64,000 bases of DNA, taken from positions 81,344,001 through 81,408,000 of the forward strand of contig OX597823.1 in assembly GCA_951406725.2 (NCBI GenBank), in the 5' to 3' direction. Below, piece by piece: positions 6,269 through 64,000 of the stretch. The notes below the pieces were generated by a model. It saw only the letters and a program-made list of their open reading frames with translations, did no database searches and was not told the DNA's origin. The stretch is from Octopus vulgaris (taxonomy: Eukaryota). Numbering within the stretch: the stretch's first letter is position 1; each line of letters opens with the position of its first letter. The position numbers were made by a program, and so were the translations under genes.

Positions 6269-6838
6269 TATTGGGTTGTTTGGAAAGTTTGTGTCGAATT
6301 TTAAAGGAAAGAAAAAGGTCAATAAATACTTGCCATTACATTTTTAATCAACCAAATGTGAACCATTTCGTTACACAATGCATCTCCATCTTTCCTTTAA
6401 CTTGAAAATACCCTCTTCCCAGAATTGAGGTGGTTTCATGGCAAAGAATTCATCAAGGTATCGTTTTACGTCATCCAAGGAATTGAAATTTTTACCATTA
6501 GGACTATTCTGCAGAGACCTGAATAAGTGGAAATCCGAAGGAGCAATATCTGGTGAATAAGGAGGGTGGGGTAACACATCCCAGCCGAGCTGCAGCAATT
6601 TTTGTCTGGTTCCTAAAGCATCATGAGCTGAAAATGGACTTTCTTATCTTCCATTTTAAAGGGTTAAAGGATTAACACAGGTTATAGAAACATAAACCCT
6701 CTTCCCTAAAAAGATGGCTTAAACTGTGTTCTAAATGGAGGTGTAGTCAAATCCTATTTTATGAACTCAATCATGTTCTAAAATAAATCGAAATGTAGGC
6801 TACTATAAATCGGCATGAACTTTCTAGACAACCCAATA
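6269..6838 (-). mobile_element. Internally deleted mariner with both TIRs
   Basis: TIRs tattgggttgtttggaaagtttgtgtcga / tcggcatgaactttctagacaacccaata; ORF LGWDVLPHPPYSPDIAPSDFHLFRSLQN. Confidence 0.9.
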
Positions 6839-8159: not shown

Positions 8160-9412
8160 GTTGGAAAGAGAGTGTTTTCGGTTTTTTAGTGTGAAATAAA
8201 TCATTTATTTTCATACTAAGAATGAACTTTAATCAATTATATATTTTCCAGTTTGTTTGATGACCTTTTGCCATCTTTCTGGCAACTCCATGAATCTGTG
8301 CTCATAGTACTTCTGGTTCTTATCAGCCAAAATGCTGAAGTAAGTGCAATTTCAGGTTATCATTATTGAAAGTTTTACCATTGAAAGAATTTTGCAAACT
8401 TTGAAATAAATGGTAATCTGATGGTGCAACGTCAGGGCTCTATGGTAGATCTGACATCACTTCCCAATCAAGCTCCAATAATTTTTCACAAGTTAGCAAA
8501 GATGTGCGTGGTCTAGCATTCTTTTATGATTTGCTAATTCTGGCCATTTTTCTTTGATTGCTTTATCCAGTTTCATTAGTTGTTGACAGTAAACATCTGA
8601 ATTGATCGTTTGGTTCCTTGGAAGCTGCTTGAAATACACAACACTGTTGTAATCCTACCACATTGACAGCATGACCTTTTTTTGATGCAATTCAGCTTTT
8701 GATGTAGTTTGTGCTGGTTCATTACATTTGGACCATGGTCATTTTTGATTGATGTTATTGTAGACAATCCATTTTTCTTCCCCAGTGATGATTCGTTTCT
8801 AAAAAGGGTCGATTTCATTGCGTTTGAGATGCATATTGCAAATATTGATTTGTTGTGTTAAGTGAACCCCTTTCAATTTATGTGGAACCCAAATATTGAG
8901 CTTCTTAACGAGTCCAAGACATTTTAAGTGATCTTCAATTGTTGTGTGTGACACATTTAACCACTCTGCAGTTTCTTGCACAGCTATATGACAATCAGAT
9001 TCAAATATGGCTTTGATTCGGTCATCATCAACTTCAGTAGGTTGACCAGAATATTGGTCATCTTTGAGTGAAAAATCTCCAGAACAAATTTTTTTAAACC
9101 ATTTCTAACATGTGTGTTCTGTTAAGCAATCAACACCATAAACTTCCCATATCTCTTTGTGAGCCTCGGCAGTTTTCTTGCCTTTATGGAAATAAAAAAG
9201 CAAAAGAGGTGAAAATGTTCATTTTTGCACTCCATGTTAATATTGACACTGAACTAACAGCTTTTACCAAAATTACATGCAATTTGCTTCTAAAGTGAAC
9301 TAAAAGTAATGGGTATCAAAAGGAAAAAAAAATCATAATATTAACAAAAGTCAAAAAAAAACCATAACTATTTATTTCCGAAAAACGACATTACTTTCTT
9401 GCCAACCCAGTA
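8154..9412 (-). mobile_element. Full-length decayed mariner (Tc1/mariner DD34D) transposon, ~1.26 kb
   Basis: TIRs TA-ttgggttgg..aaag / ctt..gccaacccag-TA; minus-strand WVPHKL and SPDVAPSDYHLF motifs with stops and frameshifts. Confidence 0.9.
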
Positions 9413-13258: not shown

Positions 13259-14806
13259 TGTGTGTATGTATGTATGTATATATATTGTTATCAAAATAAG
13301 CAACTTATATAATACCGCACTAAATTCTGGTGCCTCAACTTAAGTAACATATTCATCTGAATCTATATAGTTAGATAGATAGATAGATAGATACACACAT
13401 ACATATACATGTATTTATATATCTTTATGTATACATGTGTATAGATATGTGCATATTTACATATACATATATATGCACATATGCATGTATGTATGTATGT
13501 ATGCATGTATGTATGTATGTATCTATCTATCTATATACATATATATATGCCAGAACCATCTAATTGGCCCTCGTGCCGGTGGCACATAAAAGCACCTACT
13601 ACACTCTCAGAGTGGTTGGCGTTAGGAAGGGCATCCAGCTGTAGAAACTCTGCCAGATCATGATTGAAGCCTGGTGCAGCCATCTGGTTCGCTAGTCCTC
13701 AGTCAAATCTTCCAACCCATGCTAGCATGGAAAGCGGACGTTAAACGATGATGATGATGATGATGAAGATATATAGTAAAGTTTATTTGCCAACATAATG
13801 TGGCAGCCCTATACAAGGACAATGTTATTGTTTTTTAACCCCAGGAAAACATCTTTTCTAGTTGGCTACCGACACAGAGTTTGTACCCATATAGTACATG
13901 CAAGGAAGGTCATTGCTCCCATCTTATGTGATACTCACAGACCTAGGTTTCTGAGTAGTTACCCATCCTCAGTGTGAAGCAATCTCCGGCTAGTAATGGG
14001 AGCTCTCTCCACTTACAAATTCTATATATCTTTTAAGTAACACACAATCGCTGATCTCATAAAGAGAAAAACAACTTGTATATCATCATCATCATCATCA
14101 TCGTTTATCGTCCGTTCTCCATGCTAGCATGGGTTGGACGGTTCGACCGGGGTTCTGGGAAGCCAGAAGGCTGCACCAGGCTCCAGTCTAATCTGGCAAT
14201 GTTTCTACAGCTGGATGCCCTTCCTAATATATATGTATACATATATATATACACACAAGGTTACAAGGTGGTGCCCCGAGCATAGCCGCTGTCTAATTAC
14301 TGAAAGAAGTAAAAGAATACATACATCATTATTATCATCATCATTATCATTTAACATCTGTTTTCCATGCTGGCATTGGTTGGATGGTTTGATAGGGTCT
14401 GGTCAGGCTTCATAGTCTGTTTTGGCAGGGTTTTTACGGCTGACTGCCCTTCCTAACACCAACCACCTTAGAGAGTATATATATATATACACACATACAC
14501 ATAATACATGAATATATGTGTGTGTGTGTGTGTGTGTGTGTATACATAAGCAAACATTGGGACACAGTGCAGTCCACAGCCTTGTGGAACCCACTAAAAC
14601 CAACCCGCTCATGACAGCATAGAAGATGAACTTTAAATGATGATGATGTTGATGATCATACTGATGGTGATGATGTTGATATACACACATGCATATATGT
14701 ATATGTGTGTGTGTGTGTATTTGTATGTATCTGTGTACATATGTATGTAGATATATGCCTATAAGGTACTGTAGTACAAACAATATGCATAGAAATTAAA
14801 ACAAAA

Positions 14807-16534: not shown

Positions 16535-16651
16535 TGGAGTTCAGTCCTGCTGTGTGACACCTATAGCCCCAGGTTGACCAAAGCCTTGTGAGTGGATTTG
16601 GTTGATGGAAACTGAATGAAACCCATTGTATCTATGTATGTACATATCTAT

Positions 16652-16693
<42 letters not shown>

Positions 16694-16900
16694 CTTTGTG
16701 TCTGTGTTTGTGTCACCCTGCCCCCAACCAGTGCTGGTATGTTTACATCCCAGTAACTTAGTGGTTCTGCAAAAGTGACTGACAGAATAAGCACCAGGTT
16801 TTAAAATAAGTACTGGGGTTGATACATTCAACTAAATATTCTTCAAGGTGGTACCTGCCCCAGCATGGCCACAGTCGAATGACTGACAGAAGTAAAAGAT
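16535..16900 (+). mobile_element. SINE family S1
   Basis: Same body and tail. Confidence 0.8.
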
Positions 16901-17682
16901 AAAATGATAAATATTAATGTAATATATCTTGATGCATAATAAAATTTTATTAACCAAAACAACAATACATTCCTGCCAACAAAAAACAAATCTATACAAC
17001 TTGGAAGCATAAAATTCCAGGGTCTTGAATCCAATAAATTCTATGAAGACATTTTGAGCTGATATTTAGTAGTGAAAGACTTTTTGTAGGAAGTTATTGA
17101 GATACTTAGAAAAAAATGATAGTGAGTCAAAGAACAGTCTGGGAAATAAGTTGGATTTCATCAGTTCATTATGTTGGCATCCTGTGTTTTTTGTTATTTG
17201 CAACCCATCCCTTACATATATATCCTGTATTTTGCCATTAAATATGAGAGGTTATTAGAATGGTCACTTTTGTCAGAAATCTATACTACCTGCCAGGCAA
17301 CCTTATGCTCCAACCATTGTCACTCGACCAAAATCTACCAATGAAAAATTCATAAAAATAAAAAGAATAAATTGAATAAATTAATGCTTTACATTCCTTT
17401 CTAAACAACCATTTATCATTTTGGTGCATTGCCTGAAGGATTGGACATAACAAGGAATAGAAACCCAGAATTGTGATGGAGTGATTCATCAACTTTGAAT
17501 GAATAAATAAGCTTTATCCATCCTATTCACTCACACACACACATTTGTACATATATACATGTGTGTGTGTATGTGTGTGTGTGTGTGTATCAGAACAGTT
17601 TGATTCAAACTGTTCTGATGATCCATATATGTAACTTCCAATAAATGTGTTGATTGTCCTTTTTTGGTTCGTCCACTCACTC

Positions 17683-17718
<36 letters not shown>

Positions 17719-17889
17719 TCATGTATATATATATATATATATAATCTATAAGTTACTGGGATGTAAACATACCAGCACTAATTGGGGGCAGGGTGACACA
17801 AACACAGAAACAAAGACACACACACACACACACTCATAGATATGTACATACATAGATACAATGGGTTTCATTCAGTTTCCATCTACCAA

Positions 17890-17980
<91 letters not shown>

Positions 17981-18124: not shown

Positions 18125-18975
18125 AGTGAGAGAAAAGAGGGGGTTGCCAGAATTTTGGAAAAGGAGTTTTTTTTATTTAGTCTTTAATATGAGTTGTAGT
18201 TTCAAGTGATTTTTGTTGTTGTGTATCAATATGTAGCTCTGCTACAAATTCTTGCTATTTTCTTCTTGTTCATTTCTGTTGTTAAAGCAGCTTGCATATG
18301 AGTATTATTCACAGTTTAATCCGTATTGGGGAAGATTGTATCAAGTTTTGATGTGAGTAAATTCAGCTTTCTAGATATTTCTGTGATGAGTTCCTCTGTG
18401 TTTTTGGCGTCTCTCGGTTGCGAGCTTGATTCTGATCTATTCATTCTGACATCTTGTACATCCAAGTAGCTATGTATAAAGTGTTAAAAGTGATGTACAA
18501 ATATTGAAACTGAGAAAAGACAAGATCGCCAGACTAAATAAATAATGACTGAATAAAAAAATACTTTTTTTCCAAAATTCTGGCGGTCTTGTCTTTCCTA
18601 TGTATTCAATATTTGTACATCACTAAAGTAGTGAGCTGGCAGAAACATTAGCATGCCGGGTGAAGTGCTTAGTGGTATTCGTCTGTCTTTATGTTCTGAG
18701 TTCAAAATTCACCAAGGTTGATGAAGGGAAGAAGGAGAAGGTCGGTAGGAGTGAAGAGAAGAAAGGAGAGTAGGAGTGAGGAGAAGTAGGAGTCGGAGCA
18801 AGAGAGGAGTGGTGGGTGGGAGGATGTAGGTGTGAGGTAGAGAGAGGCGAGGGGATGAGAGTTGAGCCCATGTGGCGCAAAGGAGCGTAGAGAGAAGATT
18901 AATCCCTGTTCACGGTGCAAACGGGAGCCCGGATGGCCCCTGTGCAAGGACAATCCAATATATATATATATATAT

Positions 18976-23427: not shown

Positions 23428-23616
23428 CTAAGGTGAGTCATTATGGCAATATAATGAACACATGTACTGCTTCTATTCCACTCCTTTATACTCAGTCAAT
23501 TAGTTAAATATCTAATTAACTAATTTAGTTGGATATTTAACCAATTGTCTAATAATAAAGGAGCGGAATTGAACCAGTGCATGTGTTAATTATATTGGCA
23601 TAATGACTCTCCCTAG
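23428..23616. repeat. ~90-bp-arm imperfect hairpin (MITE-like remnant)
   Basis: ctaaggtgagtcattatggcaatataat...ctaattaa versus ttagttgg...attatattggcataatgactctccctag. Confidence 0.75.
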
Positions 23617-25501: not shown

Positions 25502-25909
25502 CGCACACGGGTGTGTATGTTCTACCTGAGAGGTTCCTGCTGGCACGGAAAGGAAGGTGCAGGCTGCCGCTTTGCACATCGGGGACCCTGCCACAGAGAC
25601 ACGAGGCAGATGGACAAACCATCAACACAAAGAAAAGGGATGGACTACGCACCACCTGCCCCAAAGCGGAGGTACGCAGATGTTGTGCGCGCCACAAACA
25701 GCCAACATGATGTTGTCGAAAGAGCAGCTGCTGAGCAACAATCTTTTTTGTGCATGGCACAAAAGATCGTACAGCAGCTGACCTGGCTTCATCAAACCCA
25801 AGCCCGCAGGTGGGACTACCCACTATATACCAGACCACCACAGCAAACAGACACAGGATGGACACCGCCGGCAACAACAACGTACACCTCACCTCGATAC
25901 TCCTACTGA
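25502..25909 (+). CDS. C-terminal part of LINE ORF1 with a CCCH-type zinc-finger-like motif
   Basis: Open frame [26 protein letters not shown]...RRYADVV..., stop at 25907-25909; overlaps the ORF2 start in another frame; 5' end cut by the TA tract. Confidence 0.7.
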
Positions 25910-28626
25910 ACATCAGAGGACTGCAAACACTCAGTAACAGGACAAAGATCCCGTTCCTGAGAGACTTTGTTGCATGCAATCAAGCCTTATGCATAGCACT
26001 TACAGAAACGCACCTGAAACCGGACATAGCAGATGCGGAGTTACACATACCACAGTATGCTGTACTACGGACCGACAGGAAAGAAAGGAGTCATGGAGGT
26101 GTTGCTATGTACATCCGTGAGGACCTCACACCCCAGGTCCTCTTGTCATACTCAAACTCGGTGTGTGACACACTAATTGTACATATTAGGCAACTTGATG
26201 TAGTTGTGTGTGCTACATATCGCCCTCCAGATGCCCCAAGCCATGTGGGCAAGTTCGAAGACTGCCTTATAAAAATAGAAGAAATTCTAACCACATTAGA
26301 ACAACACATAGGTGTGCTTCTTATGGGAGACTTCAATCTGCCCAATGTCAGATGGCCCGAGGGCCTTTCTCTCCCAGGAATGACAAGATGTGAACGAGGA
26401 CAGGCGAGGTCCCTCCTGAACCTCACCAACACCCTGTACATGGAGCAGGTAATACTCCAACCAACCAGGGCAGGTAACACACTGGATCTCTGCTTCACAA
26501 ATGACATGGATCTCATCCATAATGTGAAAGTGACACCGACACTACTCTCGGATCACAACATGGTAGAGCTGACCATGTATGGGCCAAAAGAGAGCACGGA
26601 CATGCAGCCTACAAGAAACCCTCAAAATCTTTCCAGCTTGAACTACCATAAGGCAAACTGGAAACAAATTGAGAAAGAGATCCTCAAACAAAACTGGCCT
26701 GAATGTCTCTCCTCGCCAGACATCGACGTGAAACTTCAACAATTCATGTCTGTAATGCAAGCCATATGCTACAAATGTGTCCCAGAGAGAAAGGCCACTG
26801 TACACAAGAACAAAATCCCCAGAGAGAGGAAAATTTTAATGAGACGGCGTACGAAATTTTCAAATCGCCTAAACAAACAGATTGAAAGCAGTGAAAAGTC
26901 CCGCCTAAAAATAAAACTGTTGGAAATCGAAAAATGTCTGCAACTCTCCCATGAAAAAGAAAGAGCAGACAAAGAAGCCTGGGCTATAGAAAACATAAAA
27001 TCTAACCCCAGAGCTTTCTACAGGTATGCTAAAGAAACAGCTACAGTGCACTGTAGAATAGGGCCACTCCTCGAAAAGGATGGCACACTTACAGGAAAAC
27101 CAATGAGGGTAAGTGAAATACTGAATGAGCAATTCAAGAGTGTTTTCACTCCACCCCTTGGGCATCTCCAAATCACCAATCCAACTGACTTTTTTACCAC
27201 TGCAGATATAAAATCAGAGGCGGCGACGATAGATTACATCGATATAAATGAAGACGATGTAACCAAGGCTATAGATGAAATGAAAAGAGACTCAGCTACT
27301 GGCCCCGATGGATTCCCGGCAATCCTCCTAAAAGCATGTAAGAGAGTCCTAGCAAGACCACTGCAGTTCCTCTTTCAGAGCTTCCTTGCAGCTGGCAAAC
27401 TTCCAGGAAAACTGAAGGAAGGTAAAATATGCCCCATTCATAAAGGAGGTAGCAGAGCGGAAGCCAAGAACTATAGACCTATCTCTCTGACCTCACACAT
27501 CAGCAAGGTCATGGAACGAATAGTCAGAAGGAAGCTGATCACCTTCCTTGAAGAGAATGACTTGCTGCCCGACACCCAACATGGTTTCCGACCAGGGAGA
27601 AGCTGTTTAACTCAGCTCCTACAACACTATGACTGGGTGCTGAAACGGCTGCTCAACCACTCAAATGTGGAAGTGATATATCTCGACTTTGCAAAGGCCT
27701 TTGATAAAGTCGATCATGGAATGATATGTCACAAACTGCGTGATCTCAACATAGTTGGAAAACTGGGAGAATGGCTTCATGACTTTCTGAAGGATAGAAG
27801 TCAGGTGGTAGTAGCCAATGGGGCCACCTCCATTAACACACAAATAGTGAGCGGTGTTCCGCAGGGCACTGTTCTGGGACCACTACTGTTCATAATGGCC
27901 CTCTCAGACATGCCCTCAGCCACGCAGAGAGCCACGATCACAAGTTATGCAGATGATACAAAAGTTTCACAGGCAATACAGAACCCTGAGGACACTAAAC
28001 ACCTGCAATGTGAGCTAGACGAAATATACAAGTGGGCTGAAAAGAATAGCATGCAGTTCAATGCTGGAAAGTTTCAAGCTTTATACTATCAGCATGCAAA
28101 ACTGAATGCAATACCCAATGAATACACTGGACCCGGAGGGATTGCAATCCCAGAGGCACAATCAGTGCGTGACCTGGGTATTCACATGAGTGATGACGCG
28201 ACCTTTCATGTACATGTTGCTAAACTGACAATGAAATGTAGACGGCTGGCTGGCTGGATTCTTAGAACCTTTAGAACAAGAGAACAAGAAACCATGATGG
28301 TCCTCTGGAAGACACTTGTCCTAAGCCACTTTGACTATTGCTCTCAGCTATGGTCACCATCCAGTGTCAAGTTGATCACAGAACTTGAGGCGATCCAACG
28401 AAGCTACACAAAGAAGATAGCCTCTATGCAGAATGTAAGCTACTGGGAAAGACTCAAGAGATTAAAATTATATTCCCTGGAGCGTAGGCGGGAAAGATAT
28501 GCCATAATATACATCTGGAAGATCCTGGAGGGAAGTGTCCTGAACTTTGGCATCGAGAGTTACGCAAATGCCAGAACTGGGCGCCACTGCGTGGTGCCTA
28601 GGACTAAACCTGCCATCAAGATGTAG
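25858..28626 (+). CDS. LINE ORF2: APE endonuclease plus reverse transcriptase (frame open from 25750; probable start ATG 25858)
   Basis: APE motifs LNIRGL, LTETHL, GGVAMY, YRPP, MGDFN, LDLCF, SDHN; RT motifs [44 protein letters not shown]. Confidence 0.95.
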
Positions 28627-28870: not shown

Positions 28871-29382
<512 letters not shown>

Positions 29383-29399
29383 ATTTATTATATAGAAGG

Positions 29400-29446
29400 A
29401 GCTTCTACAGGACTAACTGTTTCATTCAAGAGAAATCCAGGAAGCT
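29400..29446 (-). ncRNA. Degenerate family-A hammerhead (core CTGGA, 2-nt deletion)
   Basis: Reverse complement agcttc-ctgga-tttctcttgaat-gaaa-cagttagtcctg-ta-gaagct. Confidence 0.6.
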
Positions 29447-29835
29447 ATTTAACAAGAATTGTATTAGCATTTATAATTTAGGCAGGTGGAGTGGTGGTGG
29501 GGGACTTTTTGGGGGTAGGCATAGCGCAAAATATCATACTCAGGGGAGTGGTCAAGGAGTCAGTGGTAAGTTAGATGAAAGAATAGATAAATAAAATATA
29601 TAAAAAAATATAAAAATAAAATAAAAAAATAAAAAAATAAAAAAATAAAAAAATATATATAAAAAATATATATATATATATATAAAATATATATATATAA
29701 ATATATAAAAAAATATAAAAAATATATATATAAAAAAAGGGGGATAGAGTTATAGGTAAATAAGGAGATTCCCACTTATACCTATACACACATGTATACG
29801 TATCTACACACACATACGCACATACACATATATCT

Positions 29836-29894
<59 letters not shown>

Positions 29895-30365
29895 CATACC
29901 TACACATACACACATACATACATACAAATATACATATACATATATATATATATACAATCCAATACAGGCCCATTCCCTAATTTTAATTTTATTATCTTCA
30001 TTTATTACTTTTGTTATCTTTGATCGCTAAGGCTAAGAATCCTGGCAATAGCTGCTTGTCCATTTGTCTGTCTACTAGAAGGCAAGTACTCATTCCCGCA
30101 CGCACACTCATTAGCACGTACATTCACCCATTCGTACACTCATACACATACACGTACGCACGCGTTATATTCATACATACAAACATCTACATACGTTCAC
30201 GTATATACACATACGTACTCGTACCTACAGATTCGTGTCTACACTTTAGGAGGCTAGTCTATACATATACACCAATAAATATACATATATATATATATAT
30301 ACATATATACCCGCATATACATACACACACACACATATATATATACTCCTACATACAGATACATA

Positions 30366-30405
<40 letters not shown>

Positions 30406-30718
30406 TACATATATATATACATACATACACATACATACACATACACACATACACACACATACATACACATATATATACATACACAAACATATATACACAC
30501 ACATATATATACATACACACATACACACATACATACGTATACATACGTATTTTTATTCTTTTATTTTATCTTTTATATTTTTTTATTTTTTATTTTTTTA
30601 TTTTTTTATTACCTTGACCACTCCCCCAAGTATGATATTTTGCGCTATGCCTACCCCCAAAAAGTCCCCCACCACCACTCCTCTAAATGTATAAATGCTA
30701 ATACAATTCTTGTTAAAT

Positions 30719-30769
30719 AGCTTCCTGAAGATTTCTCTTGAATGAAACAGTACTAGTCCTGTAGAAGCT
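30719..30769 (+). ncRNA. Type I hammerhead ribozyme fold (family A)
   Basis: AGCTTC-CTGAAGA-t TTC tctt GAA t-GAAA-CAG tactagtc CTG-TA-GAAGCT; stems I, II and III and the core can be drawn; predicted cleavage after GUA (30763). Confidence 0.8.
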
Positions 30770-30849
30770 CCTTCTATATAATAAATTAATTTTACTCTGC
30801 TATGTATTGAGTACCTTACTTACTGTGGTTAACCCCGAATCAACCCGGG

Positions 30850-32260
<1,411 letters not shown>

Positions 32261-38066: not shown

Positions 38067-39563
38067 TTTCACATCCATCTTCCATACAGGAATGGGTCAG
38101 ATGGTTTGATGGAAGCTATTGAGCTACAGAACTGCACCAAGCTCTAGTGTCTGCTTTGGCTTGGTTTCTGATGCTGGGTGCCCTTCTTAATGCCAACAAG
38201 TTTACAGAGTGTACTGGGTGCTTTTACAGCGTGTACATAGCACCAGTAGCAGTGAGGTCGCCATGTAGGCCACTTGTGAGACAAGACTCCTCAGCTGAGG
38301 TGGGGAGTAGTATTGAAGGAGGTGGCTTTGTTTCAGGTGATGAGGTATGATAGAGGTGTTTTTCTGTAGAGAGGATACATGGCTACCCCAGTTGAAAAAG
38401 GAGAGAGAGAGGGGGAGAGAGAGAATGAGAGAGAGAGAGGGGGTAGCGAGTGAGAGAGAGACAGAGAGAGAGAGAATGAGAAAGGGAGAGAGAGGGAGAG
38501 TGAGAGAGAGAGAAGGAGGGAGAGAGAGAGAGAGAGAGAGAAAAGATGGTAACAAAAATGCATTGCGGCACATCCTCAAGTTACAGAGTGGGGTATACAA
38601 GTGAAGTAGTACAGAGGATTGGATAGGATAAGTGGGTGGGTAAGTTCACAGGAGTGCGAAAGAAAAGTGGGAAATGGTGGGGAAGTTAATTTTCTAATAA
38701 CCAATTTATTATTTTCTCTAGATGAACAAATTGAACTCCAAAAATAAGCTTTTGACTCAGTGCATAAAATTTCATAAAAATTGAATATGTAGGAAAAAAA
38801 AGACTGCCTACATTGAAATCAACTATGAAAATAATCATTCTTGTGAAAATAAACGGTTAAATATTCTACATATGTAGAATAATAAAGTTCTTGGTGTGTT
38901 TAATAGAATAAAGTTATTTTTGATAGCTAATAATTTTATTCTAAAAAAGGATTTTAATAATGTATATATTTTCCCTTCTGCCACCCAACAGTAAAATATC
39001 ATCTCACACCCACCAGGAGAACCCCAGTTTAAAGACCCCTGCCTTAGTCCAATTTTCAACTGTTTCTGCCAACTTTTTACCTTAAGGAAAAACAAATTAT
39101 TGATTTCTAGCATTGGCACAATGTTTAGTGTGTGGCCAGGATTTTGACAAAAAAAAAAAAAATTCTTGATTATAAAAATGGATTCTCTAGTAACTGTCTT
39201 ATTTGTAAAAAACACAAGGATGCAGGCATGGTTGTGTGGTTAAAAAGTTTTCTTACCAGCCATTTGGTTTCAGGTTCAGTCCCATTACATGGCACCTTAG
39301 GCAAGTATTTTCTACCAAAGCCTTGTGGGTAGATTTGGTAGGCAGAAACTGAAAGCATTTTATATTATATTCTTTTATTTGTTTCAGTGATTAGACTGTG
39401 GCCATGCCTTTAGTTGAACAAATTGATCCCAGTACTTATTCTTTGTAAGCCTAGTATTTATTCTATTGATTACTTTTGTCGAACCGCTAAGTTATGGGGA
39501 TTATAAACACACCAACATTGGTTGTCAAGCGTTCGTAGGGGGACAAACGCAGACACACAAACA

Positions 39564-39688: not shown

Positions 39689-39892
39689 TAGGGAATATGA
39701 TTCCAAAACTTACAGGGAAAAATTCAATGTAACAATTTAAAATCAAATTTCACAATATATGATATATCATCGTCATCATCATTTAGCGTCCGCTTTCCAT
39801 GCTGGCATGGGTTGGGTGGTGCAACTGGGGTCTGGGAAGCCAGAAGGCTGCACCAGGACCAGTCTGATCTGGCAATGTTTCTACGGCTGGAT

Positions 39893-40334
39893 ATATATAT
39901 AATTTAGAGAAAAACTGCTATTAGACAATTCAATAAAGAAAGATGTTATTCACACCATATAGAAAACATATACTATATAAAAAAAGCCTTATTCTAAAAA
40001 TCAATAAAGTACAATAAATCTACCCACAAGGCTTTGGTAGAAAACTCTTACTTAAGGTGCCATGTAATGGGACTGAATCTGGAACCAAATGGCTGGTAAG
40101 AAAACTTTTTAACCATACAACCATGATAAAAGGAGTGGCTGTGTGGTTAGAAGCTTGCTTCCCAACCACATGGTTCCAGGTTCAGTCCCACTGCATGGCA
40201 CCTTGGACTATTTATTGTACTTTATTGATTTTTAGAAATAAGTTTTATTTTTATAGTATATGTTTTTCTATATGGTGTGAATAACATCTTTCTTTATTGA
40301 ATTGTTTAATAGCGGTTTTTCTCTAAATTATATA
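39893..40334. repeat. ~125-bp inverted arms enclosing two locally copied SINE pieces
   Basis: 39893-40019 is the reverse complement of 40210-40334. Confidence 0.8.
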
Positions 40335-40339
40335 CATAC

Positions 40340-41203
40340 ATACACACACACACATATATTTATATATATATACATATATATGACGGGTTTCTTTCAGTTT
40401 CCATCTACCAAATCCACTCACAAGACTTTGGTTGGCCTGAGGCTATAGTAGAAGACACTAGTCCAAAGTGCCATGCAGTGGGACTGAACCCGGAACCATG
40501 TGGTTGGGAAGCAAGCTTCTAACCACACAGCCACTCCTTTTATCATTTATCTTTTACTTATTTCAGTCATTAGACTGCTGGGGCACTGCCTTGAAGAATT
40601 TTTAGTTGAATGAATCAACCCCAGTGCCTTTTTTTATAGCCTGGTAAATTATTCTATCGGTCTCTTTTGCCAAACTGCTAAGTTACAGGGATATAAACAC
40701 ACCATCATTGGTTGTCAAGTGGTGGTGGGGACAAACACAGACACAAAGACACACACATACACATACACTCACACACACAATGGGCTTCTTTTCAGTTTCC
40801 GTCTACCAAATCCACTCACAAGGCTAAAGCTGTAGCAGAAGATACTTGCCCAAGGTGCCATGCAATTAGACTGAATCCAGAATGATGTGGTTGGGAAGCA
40901 AGCTTTTTAACATACAGCCACACCAACACCTATATATATATATATAAAGAAGCCCGTCGTATATATGTATATAGATGTATGTGTGTGTGTGTTTGTGTGT
41001 CTGCGTTTGTCCCCCCAACATCGCTTGACAACCGATGCTGGTGTGTTTGCATTCTTGTAACCTAGCAGTTCGGCAAAAGAGACCGATAGAATAAGTACTA
41101 GGCTCACAAAGATTAAGTCCTGGGGTCAATTTGCTCGACTAAAGGCAGTGCTCCAGCATGGCCACAGTCAAATGACTGAGACAAGTAAATAGAGTAAAGA
41201 GTA
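40340..41203. mobile_element. Cluster of three S1 SINE copies (-, -, +)
   Basis: 40340-40540 (-), 40550-40930 (-), 40948-41203 (+). Confidence 0.8.
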
Positions 41204-41234
41204 TATATATATATATATTTTATTTTATAGAAGG

Positions 41235-41285
41235 AGCTTGTACAGGACTAGAACTGTTTCATTCAGATGAAATCTTCAGGAAGCT
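41235..41285 (-). ncRNA. Second family-A hammerhead, head-to-head with the + strand copy
   Basis: Reverse complement agcttc-ctgaaga-tttcatctgaat-gaaa-cagttctagtcctg-ta-caagct (one stem I mismatch). Confidence 0.7.
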
Positions 41286-41332
41286 TCCTGAAGATTTCGT
41301 CTGAATGAAACAGTTCTAGTCCTGTAGAAGCT
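41282..41332 (+). ncRNA. Type I hammerhead ribozyme fold (family A)
   Basis: AGCTTC-CTGAAGA-tTTCgtctGAAt-GAAA-CAGttctagtcCTG-TA-GAAGCT; differs from the 30719 copy only in the loops. Confidence 0.8.
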
Positions 41333-41414
41333 CCTTCTATAAAATAAATTACTTTACTCTGCTATGTATTGAGTATCTTATTTACTGTGGTTAACCCTGA
41401 CTCAACCCGGGACC

Positions 41415-42657
<1,243 letters not shown>

Positions 42658-45939: not shown

Positions 45940-46690
45940 GTGTTTATATATGATGTATGTATGAGTGTGTTTATGCATAATGTATATGTGTTTAAATATA
46001 TATGATGGATGTATGAGTGTGTATATGCATAATGTATGTGTTTATATATGATGTATGTATGTTTTTGTGTGTATTGTATGCGCGTGTGTGGTTATATATG
46101 ACTATGTATGTGTTTATATATGATGTGTGTGTTTATATATGATGTGTGTGTTTATATACAATGTGTGTGTTTATATACGATACTCTTTTACTCTTTCACT
46201 TGTTTCAGTCATTTGACTGCGGCCATGCTGGAGCACCGCCTTTAGTCGAGCAACTCGACCCCGGGACTTATTCTTTTTGTAAGCCCAGTACTTATTCTAT
46301 CGGTCTCTTTTTGCCGAACCTCTAAGTGACGGGGACGTAAACACACCAGCATCGGTTGTCAAGCAATGACGATGTGTGTGTTTGTATACGATGTGTGTGT
46401 TTATTATACGATGTGTGTGTGTTTATATACGATGTGTGTGTGTTTATATATGATGTGTGTTTATATATGATGTATGTGTGTTTACATATATGATATATGT
46501 ATGTGTTTATATACGATGTATGTATGTGTGTTTACATATATATGATGTATGTATTTGTGTTTTCATATATGTGTGTTTATATATGATATATGTATGTGTT
46601 ATATACGATGTATGTGTTTCTATATGATGTATATGTCTTTATATATTACATACGATTGTGTTTATATATGATGTATGTATGTGTGTGTGT
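45940..46690. repeat. ~20-bp minisatellite (tttatatatgatgtatgtgtg) interrupted by an S1 SINE tail (46182-46367)
   Basis: Direct reading. Confidence 0.8.
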
Positions 46691-46989
46691 TTCTCTATGC
46701 TTTAGATTAGATAAGTTGTTAAATAATATTTGATAATTGATATATCAAAGTACTACACCGATGAAACGGAATTGAAAGTAAAGCAAAAAAAAGAAAAAAG
46801 AAAAAGAAACCGATAAAAAAGAAAGACAAAACAACAAACAACGACATCGTCTACGGGAAGCACTCCTTGATCTACTGGATATTCCTGTTGGAAAGTGTTG
46901 GGAAAATAATCATTGATTTGTTTGCTGTATACTTCGTGTGTTTTCTTCTAGTTAAACTTTCACCTCCGTGTATTTTTGTTTATTTCTCT

Positions 46990-47399
46990 ACTCTTTTACT
47001 CTTTTACTTGTTTCAGTCATTTGACTGCGGCCCTGCTGGAGCACCGCTTTTAGTCGAGCAAATCGACCCCAGGACTTATTCTTTTTGTAAGCCTAGTACT
47101 TATTCTATCGGTTCTCTTATGCCGAACCGCTAAGTTACGGGGACGTAAACACACCAGCATCGGTTGTCAAGCGATGTTGGGGGGGCAAACACAGACACAC
47201 AAACATATACACATACATAAATATATATATATACATATATACGATGGGCTTCTTTCAGTTTCCGTCTACCAAATCCACTCACAAGGCTTTGGTCGGCTCG
47301 AGGCTATAGTAAATGACACTTGCCCAAGGTGCGACGCAGTGGGACTGAACCCGGAACCATGTAGTTCGTAAGCAAGCTACTTACCACACAGCCACTCCT
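46990..47399 (-). mobile_element. SINE family S1, young full-length copy
   Basis: CpGs retained; A-box tggctgtgtgg and B-box ggttcagtcc on the minus strand. Confidence 0.9.
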
Positions 47400-48069
47400 C
47401 TATTATTTCAGGACTTCAATTTTGTATGATAATACTTTATATAATAACCTCATCTAAATAATAATTTCTCCAACACGATACATGTTTTCCATTTACAAAT
47501 AATAGCAACTTCTCATTCAAACAGTTGTCTTTTTTCTCTCTTTCTTTTTTTCTTTTGATTGGACACAAAGTAATTTTTCCCTCTTGAGTAAGAGGAATAA
47601 ATTAATTGAAAAGATCCCAGTCATCTCCGACACGTTTTAAATTCTTTCTTTGTATCCAGTTTGGGAGAACAAAAACGAAGTTTACTTCTGCATGATTTAA
47701 AATCAAAATCTGTGAGGTATTGAATTTTTCTATATTGTTAGCAATCACTAACCAACTCTTATAATTAAAAGCGACAAGGCAGACGCAAAGTCCTATCCTT
47801 TTTTTTCTCTTATTGTTATTATGATATAATCGATCGATCGGGTTTTCCAGTATTTTATCGTTTAACTTTATTGATCCCTGCAGGGTTTTATTTCAGAACA
47901 AAGAAAAGCGAGTTTTAGGTACTCGATGCATCGTGTTTGGGTCATCCATGGCTTTGAATGAAAATAACTTGGATGCGTTGTTGTAAAACAATGCAGCACC
48001 CCTCCTAAAACAGGAATGCTTATACTCTTAGAGCAGCTTTAAACGAGGTCGATTCGTGATATCACGCTC

Positions 48070-48484
48070 TCTCTTTTACTTGTTTCAGTCATTTGACTGC
48101 GGCCATGCTGGAGCACCGCCTTTTAGTCGAGCAAACCGACCCCGGGACTTATTCTTTGTAAGCCTAGTACTTATTCTATCGGTCTCTTTTGCCGAACCGC
48201 TAAGTTACGGGGACGTAAACACACCAGCATCGGTTGTCAAGCGATGTTGGAGGGAACAAACACAGACACACAAACATATACACACACGTACACACACACA
48301 CATATATATACATATATATACGACGGGCTTCTTTTAGTTTCCGTCTACCAAATCCACTCACGAAGCTTTGGTCGGCCCGAGGCTATAGTAGAAGACACTT
48401 GCCCAAAGTGCCACGCAGTGGGACTGAACCCGGAACCATGTGGTTGGTAAGCAAGCTACTTACCACACAGCCACTCCTGCGCCT
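48070..48484 (-). mobile_element. SINE family S1, young full-length copy
   Basis: As above; begins ggcgcaggagtggctgtgtgg. Confidence 0.9.
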
Positions 48485-50246
48485 AAATATTATTTTATAC
48501 TTGTTATTTTAGGGGACACTAGTTTCTCTTTCTACGTATTACTATGCAGTTTTCAGAGCTCTTTGAACTAACTTAGAAACAAGAGTTGTTGTTGTTAAGT
48601 GATTGTTTTTCTTTCTTTTTGTTTTGTTTTAATTAGTTATTTACTCTTTTCACTCACTTGAACTCTGTTGATTCATGGGATTAGATTTATCATTGCTGGG
48701 GGTGGTAGAGGATAGAATATCAGAATAGATGCTAACTTCATTCAGTGTTGAATAAAACCTGAGTCATTGACTCAGTTCATTTATGTAATTAATTTACGAC
48801 GGGTGGTGGGGCAACTGTAAAGGTGGCGGTGGTGGAAGCGGAGGGTATCGAACAATTAGTCAAAGCACTGTAAAAACACTCGAAAAAAGATCTATTCGTT
48901 TGAAGAATCCAAAGGGGGGCATTGATTTAATTAGTAAATGTTATATATTGGTAGTAGGGTAGTCAGGTATCTGAGTGTTCCATCATTCCCCATCTGGCGC
49001 CGCCTCAAGCCGGATGCTGACTTACCTTCGTTTTTGATGTTGGAAACTGGAATAAGTACACTTAAGATAATTAGTTGGTATTTAATGGTGTAATAACCAT
49101 TAAAAGCCATTGATTGCGAAGATGTCTGATCTAGTTGTACCTAAACCTTGATTTATCTGACCAGAATAATATTGTTCTGATGATAGCAACATCATTTCAT
49201 TAGATGATCTATTTTTTTTTTGTCTTATAACAATTAATGAAAAATTACTTGACATGAAAAGAAATAAAATAACACTAATCAATAATTTGAGCTGCTGAAG
49301 TTCATATCCTGCCTTGGCATTGCCCTGTGTCTATGACCAGGACACTTTTAACATGCAATTAGCCCAGTCCACCTGGCTGTAAATAAGCTAGGAAGAATTC
49401 ATTGCTCTAAGCAGTATAGCCATAACAACTGGTTCTTTAACTGTTCGTCATTCAGACTACTCTTAACAAATATAAAGCTTATTTATTCACATTGTTTTGA
49501 ATTGATCATGTATTATTTCATAGCTTTGAAATTTCAATGATGTAATGGTTTATTCCTAGAATGGCATTGTAGGGTAAGTGTGACAGGTTAGATCGGGGAA
49601 ATGCGTAGCTGTATTTCGTCTGCCGCTACGGTCTGAGTTCAAATTCCGCCGAGGTCGACTTTGCCTTTCATCCTTTCGGGGTCGATTAAATAAGTACCAG
49701 TTATGCACTGGGGTCGATATAATCGACTTAATCCGTTTGTCTATCCTTATTTGTCCCCTCTGTGGGTAGTAAAAAAAATAGGTTAGATCTGGCTGGTTTG
49801 AACATAAAATAAGTAAAGTATTTCAGCTGGATATGACCAGTTTAAATGCTAAAGGGTTAATTTGCAGTGTTAAGTTTAACTCCTCCTGTGGGCCAGAAGA
49901 AAGTAATAGGAAGTTAATCCAGTCTAATCTGTAGAATTATCTTATAAGGTATCAGTTCTCCAATAGTGCCCAATCACCAACAGAGTTGTAAGACTCTCTA
50001 ATGATGATGATAAATCCATAGAAATCCAAGCTTAGCTGGATCTACTTTTAATTAAAGTTAAGGTCCTTTTTTATTTTCTCATTTACACACCTCATACAGT
50101 CTGGTTAGCAATGATTCATTAACATTTTATCATTACTTTATCTCAGATATTGAAACAAGTCTGGGTAAGGGGGAGGACTCCACCTCAAAAAGAAGAAAAG
50201 TCAAGTTCATTTCTCACTTTTTCATTCTTACAAAACAATATATTAT

Positions 50247-54374: not shown

Positions 54375-55265
54375 TGTATTCCCAGGTCATGCACTGATTT
54401 AGGTTCTGGGATTGTAACCCCCACTCTCCTCCAGCCAGTGTATCCTGTAAGTTTTCGCTCAGTTTTGGGTGGTGGTAGCACAGGGATTGGAATTACCCAA
54501 CATTAAACTGCATATTATTGTCCTTAGCCTATCTGTAATTTGTGTCCAAGTCCTGCTGCAGGTTTGCAATATCACTAGGGTTTAGTATTTTCTGTGAGAC
54601 TGTTGTATTTTCTGTGAGACCTTGCATAGCTAGCAAGGGTGGCTATCTAGTCATCTAAGGGCATTTCTGAGAGGCCCACTATGAAAAGCAGTGGTCCCAA
54701 GACAGTGCCCTGTGGAATGCCATTCACTATTTGTGTTTCCTTTGAGGTGGCTCCATTGGCCACTACTGCATGACTTCTGTCTTTCAGAAAGTCATGTAAC
54801 CACTCTCCAAGTTTTCCAGTTTTATCAAAATCGTGCAGTTTGTGGCATATCATACCATGATCACCTTTATCAAAAGCTTTTGTAAAGTCAAGGTATATGT
54901 CGTCCACATTTGAGTTTTCGAGTAACTGCTTCAACATCCAGTCATAGTGCTGTAGGAGCTGTGTCAGGCAGCTCCTACCTGGTTGAAAACCATGCTTTAT
55001 ATCAATCATCAAGTCATTTTCATTAAGGAATTTGATTAGTTTCCGTCTGACTATTCGTTCCATGACTTTGCTGATGTGTGAAGTCAGAGAGGTAAGCCTA
55101 TAATTTTTGGCATCTGTTCTGCTTCCTCCTTTATGGATTGGGCATATTATTCCCTCCTTCAGTTTGCTTGGCAGCTTGCCATTTGTAAGAAAACTCTGGA
55201 AGAGAATCTGTAGTGGTTTCACCAGGGTATGTTTGCACAATTAGAGGAGGGTTGCTGGGAAACCA
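54375..55265 (-). mobile_element. Decayed internal RT fragment of the same CR1/L2-group LINE family
   Basis: 197-aa ORF highly similar to the ORF2 above ([51 protein letters not shown]); YADD region disrupted. Confidence 0.9.
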
Positions 55266-57482: not shown

Positions 57483-58376
57483 CAAAGAGTGCGATGGGTA
57501 AATTGTCGCCATTTTATATCTTTAATTTTGCACATACATATTGTTTGTTTTTGATTTTGTCGACTACACAGTATCGTAGGGTAAGTTGAGCACCGTCTGT
57601 GAGAAAAACAGCACCACGATGCAATTTACTCTACCAGAAATTTGCAAATGACTTGCTGTGCTGCTTGGCATTTGCACTGGAAGCTCCAATACAAACATTT
57701 CACAGTGTTTGAGTGTCAATCTGAGGACATGGACTGAGAGTGATAAAAATCAAACATCCAGTCAACATCATGGTGTTGAGAGTGACCACTAGTGATGGCA
57801 ACGTTATGCCTCCATTCATCTTCCGACACAGCCTCACACTCAACACAGAGGCCTACATCATGTGCCTAGAGGCAATAGTGCTGCCCAGGGTCAAGAGGGT
57901 GGCTGGTGGAAGACACTGTGTCTGGCAACAGGACTCAGCACAATACCACACAAACAGGAGAACACAATCATGGCTCTCAGACAATTTCTGTGACAACATC
58001 ACCCCTAACATCTGGCCACCTAACTCCCCAGACTGCTATCCCCTTAATTATTATATGTGGGGTACAGTTAAATGAGAGATCAACAGAACTCCTTGTAATA
58101 CTAAAGATGAACTGAAGGCAAGGATTATGGCAGCATTCACCAACTTAAACAAGGAGACCATCCAGAAGAGTTGCAGGAGATTCTGAATCTGTCTGAAGGC
58201 CATGGTTGAAGCCAATGGTGATTTTATTGAATAAATTTACTGTTTAGTATTTCAAGATATTTTTATGTAATTTTGGTAAATATAAACGATCATGATGATA
58301 TCTGTTAAAATGGGATGTCAGTGTTATTTTCATTTTTGCTTAATTTAGATGACAGTTTATTCACCACACTCTGTAT
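57483..58376 (+). mobile_element. Internally deleted DD37D (maT-like) Tc1/mariner transposon
   Basis: WQQDSA...37 aa...WPPNSPDCYPLNYYMWG (third D mutated to N); degenerate TIRs agagtgcgatgggtaaattgtc / gacagtttattcaccacactct. Confidence 0.8.
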
Positions 58377-62474: not shown

Positions 62475-62782
62475 TACCAGAGTAAGCACATAAATGTGAA
62501 ATAAGGTGGAAAAATAGTACTCGAATACCAGAGGTAGAGTAATATGCTTTATTAAAAAGCAACCTAAATATCACTAAATCTGTTACTCAGGGCTTTCATG
62601 TTCCTGTTCATCAGACATATGAAAATGGACTACAAATCAGATGAAAGGAAAACAGGACATCAGAGGAATTAAATGTGGAATAAAAATTTGTCAATAATCT
62701 ATTTATCTTTCCAATGAACGGGAAGGTGAAACTCTGAGTAACAGTTTTTGTGATATTTTTGTTGCTTTTTAATAAAGCGTAT
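62475..62782 (-). mobile_element. Hammerhead-bearing inverted-arm element (family B)
   Basis: Arms 62542-62617 and 62711-62782 are inverted; consensus TGT-CTGATGA-ACG GGAA CGT-GAAA-CTC T GAG-TA-ACA; the one-sided tail resembles the family-A tail (TTACTCT..GTATT.GAGTA). Confidence 0.65.
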
Positions 62783-63529: not shown

Positions 63530-63865
63530 TTACACCTTGGTGAGCTGATTGTCAGTATTAGTAAGAACTCTGAAAGTATAGTAACATGAGTGAGAGGTGA
63601 ATGGATAAAGTTTAACTAGGGCTCTGCAAGAAACAATGGGATTCCCTTGCTGAGTGAAGGATAGATTACATGAAGCTTGTGTTGGAAGTGTAGCAATGCT
63701 GGTTGGTAGCAAAACAGGGCCATTGAATGAGGAGAGTATATGAAGAGCAGAAGGAAATGTGCAGATGCACCATTGGATGTGTAAGGTTAGCATGCATAAG
63801 AAAACGGACTACAAATCAGCTGAAGGAAAACAGGACCATCAGAGGAATTAAATGTGGAATAGAAA
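63530..63865 (+). mobile_element. Decayed RTE-clade LINE fragment
   Basis: VKDRLHEACVGSVAML..MRRV..QLKE..IRGIKCG, homologous to 33672-33868. Confidence 0.55.
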
Positions 63866-64000
63866 TTTGTCAATGTTCTGTTTATCTTTTGGTTGGCATT
63901 CTTTTATAGATGGTATTTTAGCTTTATCTTTTACATGTTTTAGTCATTAGACTTGTGCCATGCTGGGGCACCACCTTGAGAAATTTTAGTCGAAGAAAAC

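What the first reader, a model, noticed from the sequence alone, without database searches (positions are those of the whole stretch)
39893..40334. Inverted arms enclosing two inverted copies of flanking DNA joined by microhomology
Seen: between ~125-bp inverted arms, 40016-40125 is the reverse complement of 39227-39336 and shares its private deletion and variants. 40123-40210 is the reverse complement of 40459-40546, including non-SINE flank (tttatcat). Junctions overlap by AAAT and ATG. Inference: serial template switching to both flanks, the same architecture as 62475-62782, suggesting a recurrent local-capture mechanism (PLE reverse transcriptase switching or polymerase-theta/MMBIR repair at TA sites).
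Basis: partly seen in the sequence, partly recalled or inferred. Interest (0 to 1): 0.7.

Follow-up and report, generated by a model that had tools for sequence, protein, structure and literature searches.

The report
Inverted retroelement ends capturing both neighbours
A 440-base insert consists of two head-to-head copies of a likely Penelope-type retroelement end with inverted copies of the nearest repeat on each side stitched between them, a scar that likely records a growing DNA strand hopping onto nearby DNA while the insertion was closed.

Summary
Observation confirmed. 40016-40125 is the reverse complement of 39227-39336 (103/110, shared 17-nt deletion; next-best SINE copy 83/116). 40123-40210 is the reverse complement of 40459-40546 (86/88; next best 76/89). 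Only 1 of 27 ordinary copies has its closest relative within 1.5 kb. Overlaps are 4, 3 and 1 nt.

Corrections: the 'non-SINE flank' is the tail of the next SINE, and the 62.6-kb filler is a single direct copy.

New points: (1) The two arms stop at the same inner base, as do the other two filler-bearing pairs in the window (within 2 nt). (2) The two donors are inverted homologues, and the central switch lies 10-11 nt from their pairing register (about 1% by chance, post hoc).

Best model (0.42): both broken ends were primed on one element RNA, and one strand then copied serially along the paired donors before joining the other end. PLE identity of these arms is unproven: no hammerhead, mixed homology tests. 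Three other arm pairs in the window do carry hammerhead cores. The ingredients are known; the co-terminal, two-flank form was not found in my searches.

The parts
39891..39901 (.). TA tract at the left edge; the upstream repeat (39755-39892) loses its usual continuation here
39893..40019 (-). left arm; T-rich strand read on minus, 3' end inferred to point outward into the TA tract
   Evidence: orientation inferred from collinear alignment to the hammerhead-bearing 62.5-kb arm
40016..40125 (-). captured piece 1, inverted copy of 39227-39336; 4-nt overlap with left arm
   Evidence: 103/110, shared 17-nt deletion
40123..40210 (+). captured piece 2, inverted copy of 40459-40546; 3-nt overlap with piece 1, 1-nt overlap with right arm
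   Evidence: 86/88
40210..40337 (+). right arm, same inner end as the left arm, ends in a TA/CA microsatellite
39227..39336 (+). donor 1, part of a plus-strand SINE head (39218-39356)
40459..40546 (-). donor 2, minus-strand SINE head plus 8 nt of the next SINE's tail; inverted homologue of donor 1
   Evidence: predicted top-strand pairing 39216-39355 with 40547-40391
62478..62782 (.). comparison locus: inverted arms with hammerhead core on the left arm, one arm longer at its outer end, filler 62616-62710
63795..63889 (+). donor of the 62.6-kb filler (direct orientation, only other hit in the window)
41216..41412 (.). comparison locus: spacer-less palindrome of two hammerhead-bearing ends joined through a self-complementary 4-mer; right arm about 60 nt longer
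18489..18624 (.). comparison locus: 45-nt inverted arms with an inverted copy of 18146-18186 between them
17749..17891 (-). comparison locus: armless inverted copy of 16596-16760 inside a TA tract

Best explanation
The insert is two head-to-head copies of one element end, likely a Penelope-like pLTR 3' end, enclosing inverted copies of the two nearest SINE heads, and it likely formed in one break-closing event at a TA tract. Shown: the copies, their donors, the overlaps, the identical inner ends and the inverted homology of the donors. Inferred steps: (1) Both DNA ends at the cut TA tract were primed on the same element RNA and ran off its 5' end, giving two co-terminal cDNAs that are identical, not complementary, and so could not anneal. 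(2) Donor 1 (exposed top strand on the left) paired with its inverted homologue donor 2, as a hairpin or D-loop. (3) The left cDNA end primed on donor 1 through 4 nt near the inner end of that pairing, copied 110 nt to its outer base, switched through 3 nt to the displaced donor 2 top strand and copied 88 nt back. (4) It was then joined to the right cDNA end with little homology. The copying enzyme (element RT on DNA, or a host MMBIR-type polymerase) is not determined. No function is implied; this is a mutational scar.
For: Donor identity. Co-terminal arms in 3 of 3 filler-bearing pairs in the window (0 nt at 39.9 kb, about 2 nt at 62.6 kb, filler abutting both arms at 18.5 kb). The 41.3-kb and 29-30-kb pairs are one family (115/125 columns) but truncated at different points, so the inner end is set per event. 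The filler-less 41.3-kb pair joins at a self-complementary 4-mer with no spacer, as expected for two identical ends. The predicted fold pairs 39217 with 40546, 10 nt from the end of piece 1; piece 1 lies wholly within the paired stretch 39216-39355. Chance of two ends within 11 nt of an inverted-homologue register: 0.55% for SINE heads, 0.8% for all inverted pairs. The two priming-type junctions have 4 and 3 nt and the last has 1. Arm and capture divergences are indistinguishable (4/126 vs 9/198, p=0.77). A purified PLE protein cuts and extends both strands of AT-rich DNA (PMC11167929). Head-to-head inverted pLTRs, TA targeting and host DNA between pLTRs are described (PMC8557442; PMC3846280).
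Against: The arms carry no hammerhead core, no one-sided tail, and are not found by profiles built from the window's hammerhead-bearing ends. Only the left arm beats background in the pairwise test (44 vs best 39 of 3096 tiles; right arm 35). The register statistic is post hoc, and the observed pair falls just outside the BLAST-delimited set used for the 0.8% figure because that alignment starts 2 nt inside. Pairing of the donors is only a folding prediction at 71% identity. The armless copy at 17749-17891 shows that local templating happens here without any element. The 62.6-kb filler is direct and has no such donor pair shown. Co-terminal arms are equally expected if a finished palindrome later broke at its centre. 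The empty site could not be examined.
Confidence: 0.42

Rival explanations
1. Symmetric two-ended snap-back: after resection each cDNA-capped end folded back onto its own 3' overhang, copied about 100 nt of its own flank, and the two new ends annealed at the 3-nt overlap.
For: Each piece adjoins the arm on its donor's side and uses the strand that resection leaves (chance of that polarity is 1 in 4, my count). Needs only ordinary break biology.
Against: Does not explain why both pieces are inverted homologues meeting 10-11 nt from register (0.55-0.8%). The right-arm junction would be a priming event yet has 1 nt.
Confidence: 0.22
2. Two-step: a spacer-less palindrome formed first (like 41216-41351), later broke at its centre as a cruciform, and host repair filled it from the flanks.
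For: Explains co-terminal arms directly. Spacer-less pairs exist in the window. The armless copy in a TA tract shows host-type local templating. At 62.6 kb the arms (10/69) look older than the filler (7 mismatches in 96 columns), untested and small. The centre-break mechanism is recalled; one search gave a listing only.
Against: At 39.9 kb arms and pieces have the same divergence (p=0.77). No base was lost from either arm. A 62-nt spacer-less palindrome has persisted 1 kb away with 2 mismatches.
Confidence: 0.17
3. RNA templates: the element RT jumped from its own RNA to local nascent RNA, either SINE transcripts of both neighbours or one plus-strand transcript folded at the inverted SINE pair.
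For: Both pieces run antisense toward a SINE 5' end and stop within about 10 nt of it (chance about 0.1% for suitably oriented heads, post hoc). Capture by template jumps on read-through transcripts has been proposed for PLEs (PMC3846280).
Against: Donor 1 has two T4 runs inside the copied part, which can end Pol III transcripts (general knowledge). Only 2 of 9 differences are A-to-G on the top strand against 49 available A, and both restore the family state, so there is no editing signature. Strict use of neighbours among 27 copies fits DNA in cis better.
Confidence: 0.1
4. The arms are terminal inverted repeats of a DNA transposon or MITE, and abortive gap repair after excision replaced the interior with local filler.
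For: Equal-length arms with matching outer ends in TA context; no hammerhead or tail.
Against: No element-internal sequence is left beside either arm. No other copy in the window. The weak homology found is to a hammerhead-bearing end in the matching orientation.
Confidence: 0.08
5. Coincidence, gene conversion of pre-existing SINE fragments, or assembly chimera.
For: The flanks are SINE-dense.
Against: Shared private deletion and locus-specific junction; sister placement in the tree; 1 of 27 background; 2-6% divergence from donors.
Confidence: 0.01

Closest known systems
Inverted (head-to-head) pLTR insertions of Penelope-like elements, including host DNA between solo pLTRs in Adineta vaga (PMC3846280; PMC8557442)
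   Same: Head-to-head truncated ends, TA-rich target, palindromic centres, unrelated DNA between terminal repeats.
   Different: Here the enclosed DNA is traced to both immediate neighbours in inverted orientation and the arms are co-terminal. In the parts read, the rotifer spacers are not traced to adjacent flanks, and palindromes are explained by self-priming on an antisense template. No tail, hammerhead or target-site duplication is visible at this locus.
LINE-1 templated insertions and twin priming (PMC11702581; bioRxiv 10.1101/2024.08.27.596794)
   Same: Local genomic sequence under 250 bp copied into an insertion, microhomology at junctions, both ends extended.
   Different: L1 twin-primed parts abut on the RNA; here both arms copy the same stretch. 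Reported L1 templates lie typically within 15 bp of the site; here donors lie about 120-660 bp from the insert edges.
MMBIR templated insertions (PMC8421209)
   Same: Inverted, multi-template local copies with 2-12 nt microhomology, present as germline variants.
   Different: No element arms; the study's search covered templates within 100 bp.
Polymerase theta templated insertions (PMC7165422)
   Same: Direct and inverted local copies where ends lack microhomology; the stuttered start of the 18.5-kb filler resembles iterative synthesis.
   Different: Primary tracts rarely exceed 10 bp; here 88 and 110 nt.

Membership tests
Penelope-like element pLTR (arms at 39.9 kb) | Linked RT plus GIY-YIG ORF, or homology to the pLTR of such an element | tested here: inconclusive
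   No ORF in the arms. Left arm aligns collinearly to the 62.5-kb hammerhead-bearing end: score 44, 1 of 500 shuffles, 30 comparisons made; above all 3096 background tiles, but right arm 35 and profiles miss both. Five arm motifs absent from published Naiad, Chlamys and Hydra consensus files (exact match, line breaks could hide hits).
Penelope-like element pLTR (arms at 39.9 kb) | Head-to-head inverted 5'-truncated copies | tested here: inconclusive
   Inverted arrangement shown; which end is 3' is inferred only.
Penelope-like element pLTR (arms at 39.9 kb) | AT-rich or (TA)n target | tested here: met
   TA tracts at both outer ends.
Penelope-like element pLTR (arms at 39.9 kb) | Hammerhead ribozyme in the pLTR (absent in Naiads, and lost if truncation is downstream) | tested here: not met
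   No core in either arm. Core plus stems I and III at 30725 and 41288; core only at 62614 and 41279. One further hit at 13972 is unexplained. Rfam listed no hammerhead among the 150 rows shown of 397.
Penelope-like element pLTR (arms at 39.9 kb) | Optional one-sided tail | tested here: not met
   Outer ends equal; about 60-nt one-sided extensions at 62.5, 41.3 and 30.8 kb.
Penelope-like element pLTR (arms at 39.9 kb) | Dispersed multicopy family | not testable with these tools
   No third copy in the window; no eukaryotic genome collection; 0 hits in bacterial and archaeal genomes.
MITE / TIR DNA transposon | Terminal inverted repeats with target-site duplication | tested here: inconclusive
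   Inverted ends present; a duplication cannot be read inside TA tracts.
MITE / TIR DNA transposon | Family of copies sharing ends and interior | not testable with these tools
   Interior is entirely local sequence; no other copy in the window.
Polymerase theta templated insertion | Short (about 10 bp) tracts from close to the break | tested here: not met
   88 and 110 nt, up to 660 bp away vs PMC7165422.
MMBIR templated insertion | Inverted, multi-template copies with 2-12 nt microhomology | tested here: met
   Two templates; 4 and 3 nt at two of three junctions vs PMC8421209.
MMBIR templated insertion | Genetic dependence on break-induced replication factors | not testable with these tools
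   Needs experiments.

The most novel reading that the evidence does not exclude
Penelope-like elements integrate by priming both DNA ends on a single RNA, so the two cDNAs end at the same base. They close either through a self-complementary few bases, giving the known head-to-head palindromes, or by their RT copying about 100 nt of nearby DNA, guided by inverted SINE pairs. This would explain the inverted-pLTR structure and make PLEs a recurrent local sequence shuffler in SINE-dense genomes.
Probability: 0.25. Interest if true: 0.72.

Novelty: new variant of a known kind. Interest (0 to 1): 0.45.

Why it matters
How PLEs make their tandem and inverted structures is stated as unresolved (PMC8557442; PMC11167929). 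If co-terminal arms and flank-derived fillers hold genome-wide, they give a countable test between two-ended priming, self-priming and later palindrome breakage, and the existing in vitro PLE system can test the same predictions. Four local templated copies in one 64-kb window also suggest an active, under-annotated source of rearranged repeats in this genome, though one window cannot give a rate. The insert itself is most likely neutral debris.

Tried and rejected
The repeat finder was swamped by TA tracts. Rfam gave only microsatellite-driven miRNA hits in the rows shown. A 24-nt arm motif had 0 hits in prokaryotic genomes; the second scan was not used. Arm and other-end motifs were absent from the supplement of PMC8557442. 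The held supplement of the Octopus vulgaris repeat paper has 5,371 characters and no hits; its consensus library was not available and could settle the arm family. Exact look-up of the LINE ORF failed and a SINE motif had 0 hits in papers, so the host was not identified by any search; 'octopus' is recalled from the look of the SINE. Profile HMMs did not recover the arms. The retrozyme preprint had no relevant passage and the Chlamydomonas paper's passages showed no flank-templated PLE filler. An idea that the inner end equals a fixed ribozyme cleavage site was dropped as a general rule, since one family is truncated at different points; it stays open for these arms. An early note of a 22-nt deletion was wrong; it is 17 nt. 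A single-strand model in which the right arm is a fold-back copy of the left was set aside: the folded 3' end lies about 30 nt from the arm's inner end and it does not explain co-terminal arms at 62.6 and 18.5 kb. Supplementary figures S9-S10 of PMC11702581, which describe L1 templated insertions, were not read.

Full report
Setting. The window is AT-rich, repeat-dense eukaryotic DNA with long TA tracts, many copies of a tRNA-like SINE and a LINE ORF at 25735-28626 with endonuclease and RT domains. I recall the SINE as an octopus family, but no call confirmed the host (searches were blank).

Observation. The arms align as inverted repeats over 122 of 131 columns. Between them, 40016-40125 is the reverse complement of 39227-39336 (103/110) and 40123-40210 of 40459-40546 (86/88). 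Against 27 ordinary SINE-head copies the next-best matches are 83/116 and 76/89. Piece 1 shares a 17-nt deletion found in no other aligned copy. Piece 2 shares two states found in no other copy plus the junction into the next SINE's tail. In a tree of 26 rows each piece is sister to its neighbour (100/98 and 94/82), whereas 1 of 27 ordinary copies has its closest relative within 1.5 kb. Overlaps are 4, 3 and 1 nt, with chance 0.016, 0.064 and 0.30. No unexplained base remains between the four parts. Arm and capture divergences do not differ (p=0.77). No target-site duplication can be read, and the repeat on the left lacks its usual continuation, so some target DNA may have been lost.

Surroundings. 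A masked self-comparison and follow-up gave five more inverted pairs. At 62.5 kb the arms enclose one direct copy of 63795-63889. At 18.5 kb 45-nt arms enclose an inverted copy of 18146-18186 with a stuttered start. At 41.3 kb two ends join with no spacer through a self-complementary 4-mer. At 23.5 kb an older palindrome has almost no spacer. At 29.4-30.8 kb arms of the 41.3-kb family enclose about 1 kb with no donor found in the window. Hammerhead cores with pairing stems I and III occur at 30725 and 41288, and cores alone at 41279 and 62614. These three pairs also have one arm about 60 nt longer at its outer end. That matches the PLE pLTR and tail pattern in PMC8557442 (passages) and PMC11167929 (parts 1-2 of 4). 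Separately, 17749-17891 is an armless inverted copy of 16596-16760 inside a TA tract.

Are the arms at 39.9 kb a pLTR? Unproven. They have no hammerhead core, no tail and no third copy. The left arm aligns collinearly with the 62.5-kb end just after its predicted cleavage region (score 44, 1 of 500 shuffles, 30 comparisons) and beats all 3096 background tiles, but the right arm scores 35 and profiles find neither. Published Naiad consensus files, which include three TA-targeting Octopus families, hold none of five arm motifs.

Two features bear on mechanism. First, the arms are co-terminal in 3 of 3 filler-bearing pairs, while one family is truncated at different points in different events. 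This points to one template end per event: one RNA copied from both DNA ends, or a palindrome later cut at its centre. Second, the donors are inverted homologues. Folding the presumed pre-insertion top strand pairs 39216-39355 with 40547-40391 and sets 40546, where piece 2 starts, opposite 39217, 10 nt from where piece 1 ends. The chance is 0.55% or 0.8%; both are post hoc, and the observed pair lies just outside the BLAST-delimited set behind the second figure. With the 1-nt third junction, this favours one strand copying down one donor and back along the other, then a final join.

Results against this reading: the armless copy shows that no element is needed for local templating; the donor pairing is only predicted; symmetric snap-back needs fewer assumptions about which strands are exposed; and centre breakage explains co-terminal arms equally well. 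RNA templates would explain why both pieces end near SINE 5' ends, but T4 runs in donor 1 and the lack of an editing excess (2 of 9 differences, 49 A available) weigh against them.

Comparison with the literature. Head-to-head pLTRs, palindromic centres and host DNA between pLTRs are described (PMC3846280, parts 2-4 of 5 and passages). Local templated insertions are described for L1 (passages of PMC11702581 and 10.1101/2024.08.27.596794), MMBIR (passages of PMC8421209) and polymerase theta (passages of PMC7165422). I also saw part 1 of 3 of PMC13282606 and passages of PMC9977147 and the retrozyme preprint. Searches returned no description of co-terminal inverted pLTRs filled with inverted copies of both flanks; the library lacks most subscription papers, so absence from print is not established.

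Verdict. A real, well-supported local templated insertion, probably at a PLE integration. It is a new variant of known kinds, interest 0.45. Its value is the testable pattern it suggests for how inverted pLTRs form.

Noticed in passing
window 41216-41412: Spacer-less palindrome of two hammerhead-bearing ends (2 mismatches in 62), joined at a self-complementary 4-mer, one arm about 60 nt longer; stems I and III pair on the right arm.
   Followed up: yes
window 29380-30850: Inverted pair of the same family enclosing about 1 kb of low-complexity and unique sequence with no donor in the window and no Pfam match in the frame tested.
   Followed up: partly
window 18489-18624: Short inverted arms with an inverted, apparently twice-started copy of 18146-18186; arm family unknown.
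   Followed up: partly
window 17749-17891: Armless inverted copy of 16596-16760 in a TA tract, 4 mismatches apart from a shorter CA run.
   Followed up: partly
window 23428-23616: Older palindrome with 92-nt arms (77/92) next to a TA tract, no hammerhead core.
   Followed up: partly
window 25735-28626 (+): Uninterrupted 963-codon LINE ORF with endonuclease and RT domains between long TA tracts; related fragments near 41790-42000 and 54647-55240.
   Followed up: partly
window 13940-13980 (-): Isolated hammerhead-like core with pairing stems, not tied to any arm pair; may be chance.
   Followed up: no
window 17589-17619: Perfect 15-nt inverted repeat with a 1-nt spacer beside a microsatellite.
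   Followed up: no
window 46201-48490: Three nearby direct SINE-body copies at 93-95% identity; distant copies reach 90-93%, so likely a young subfamily, local duplication not excluded.
   Followed up: partly
window 6371-6643, 8576-9104, 57725-58075: Frames that look like mariner/Tc1 transposase fragments (recalled resemblance, not scanned).
   Followed up: no
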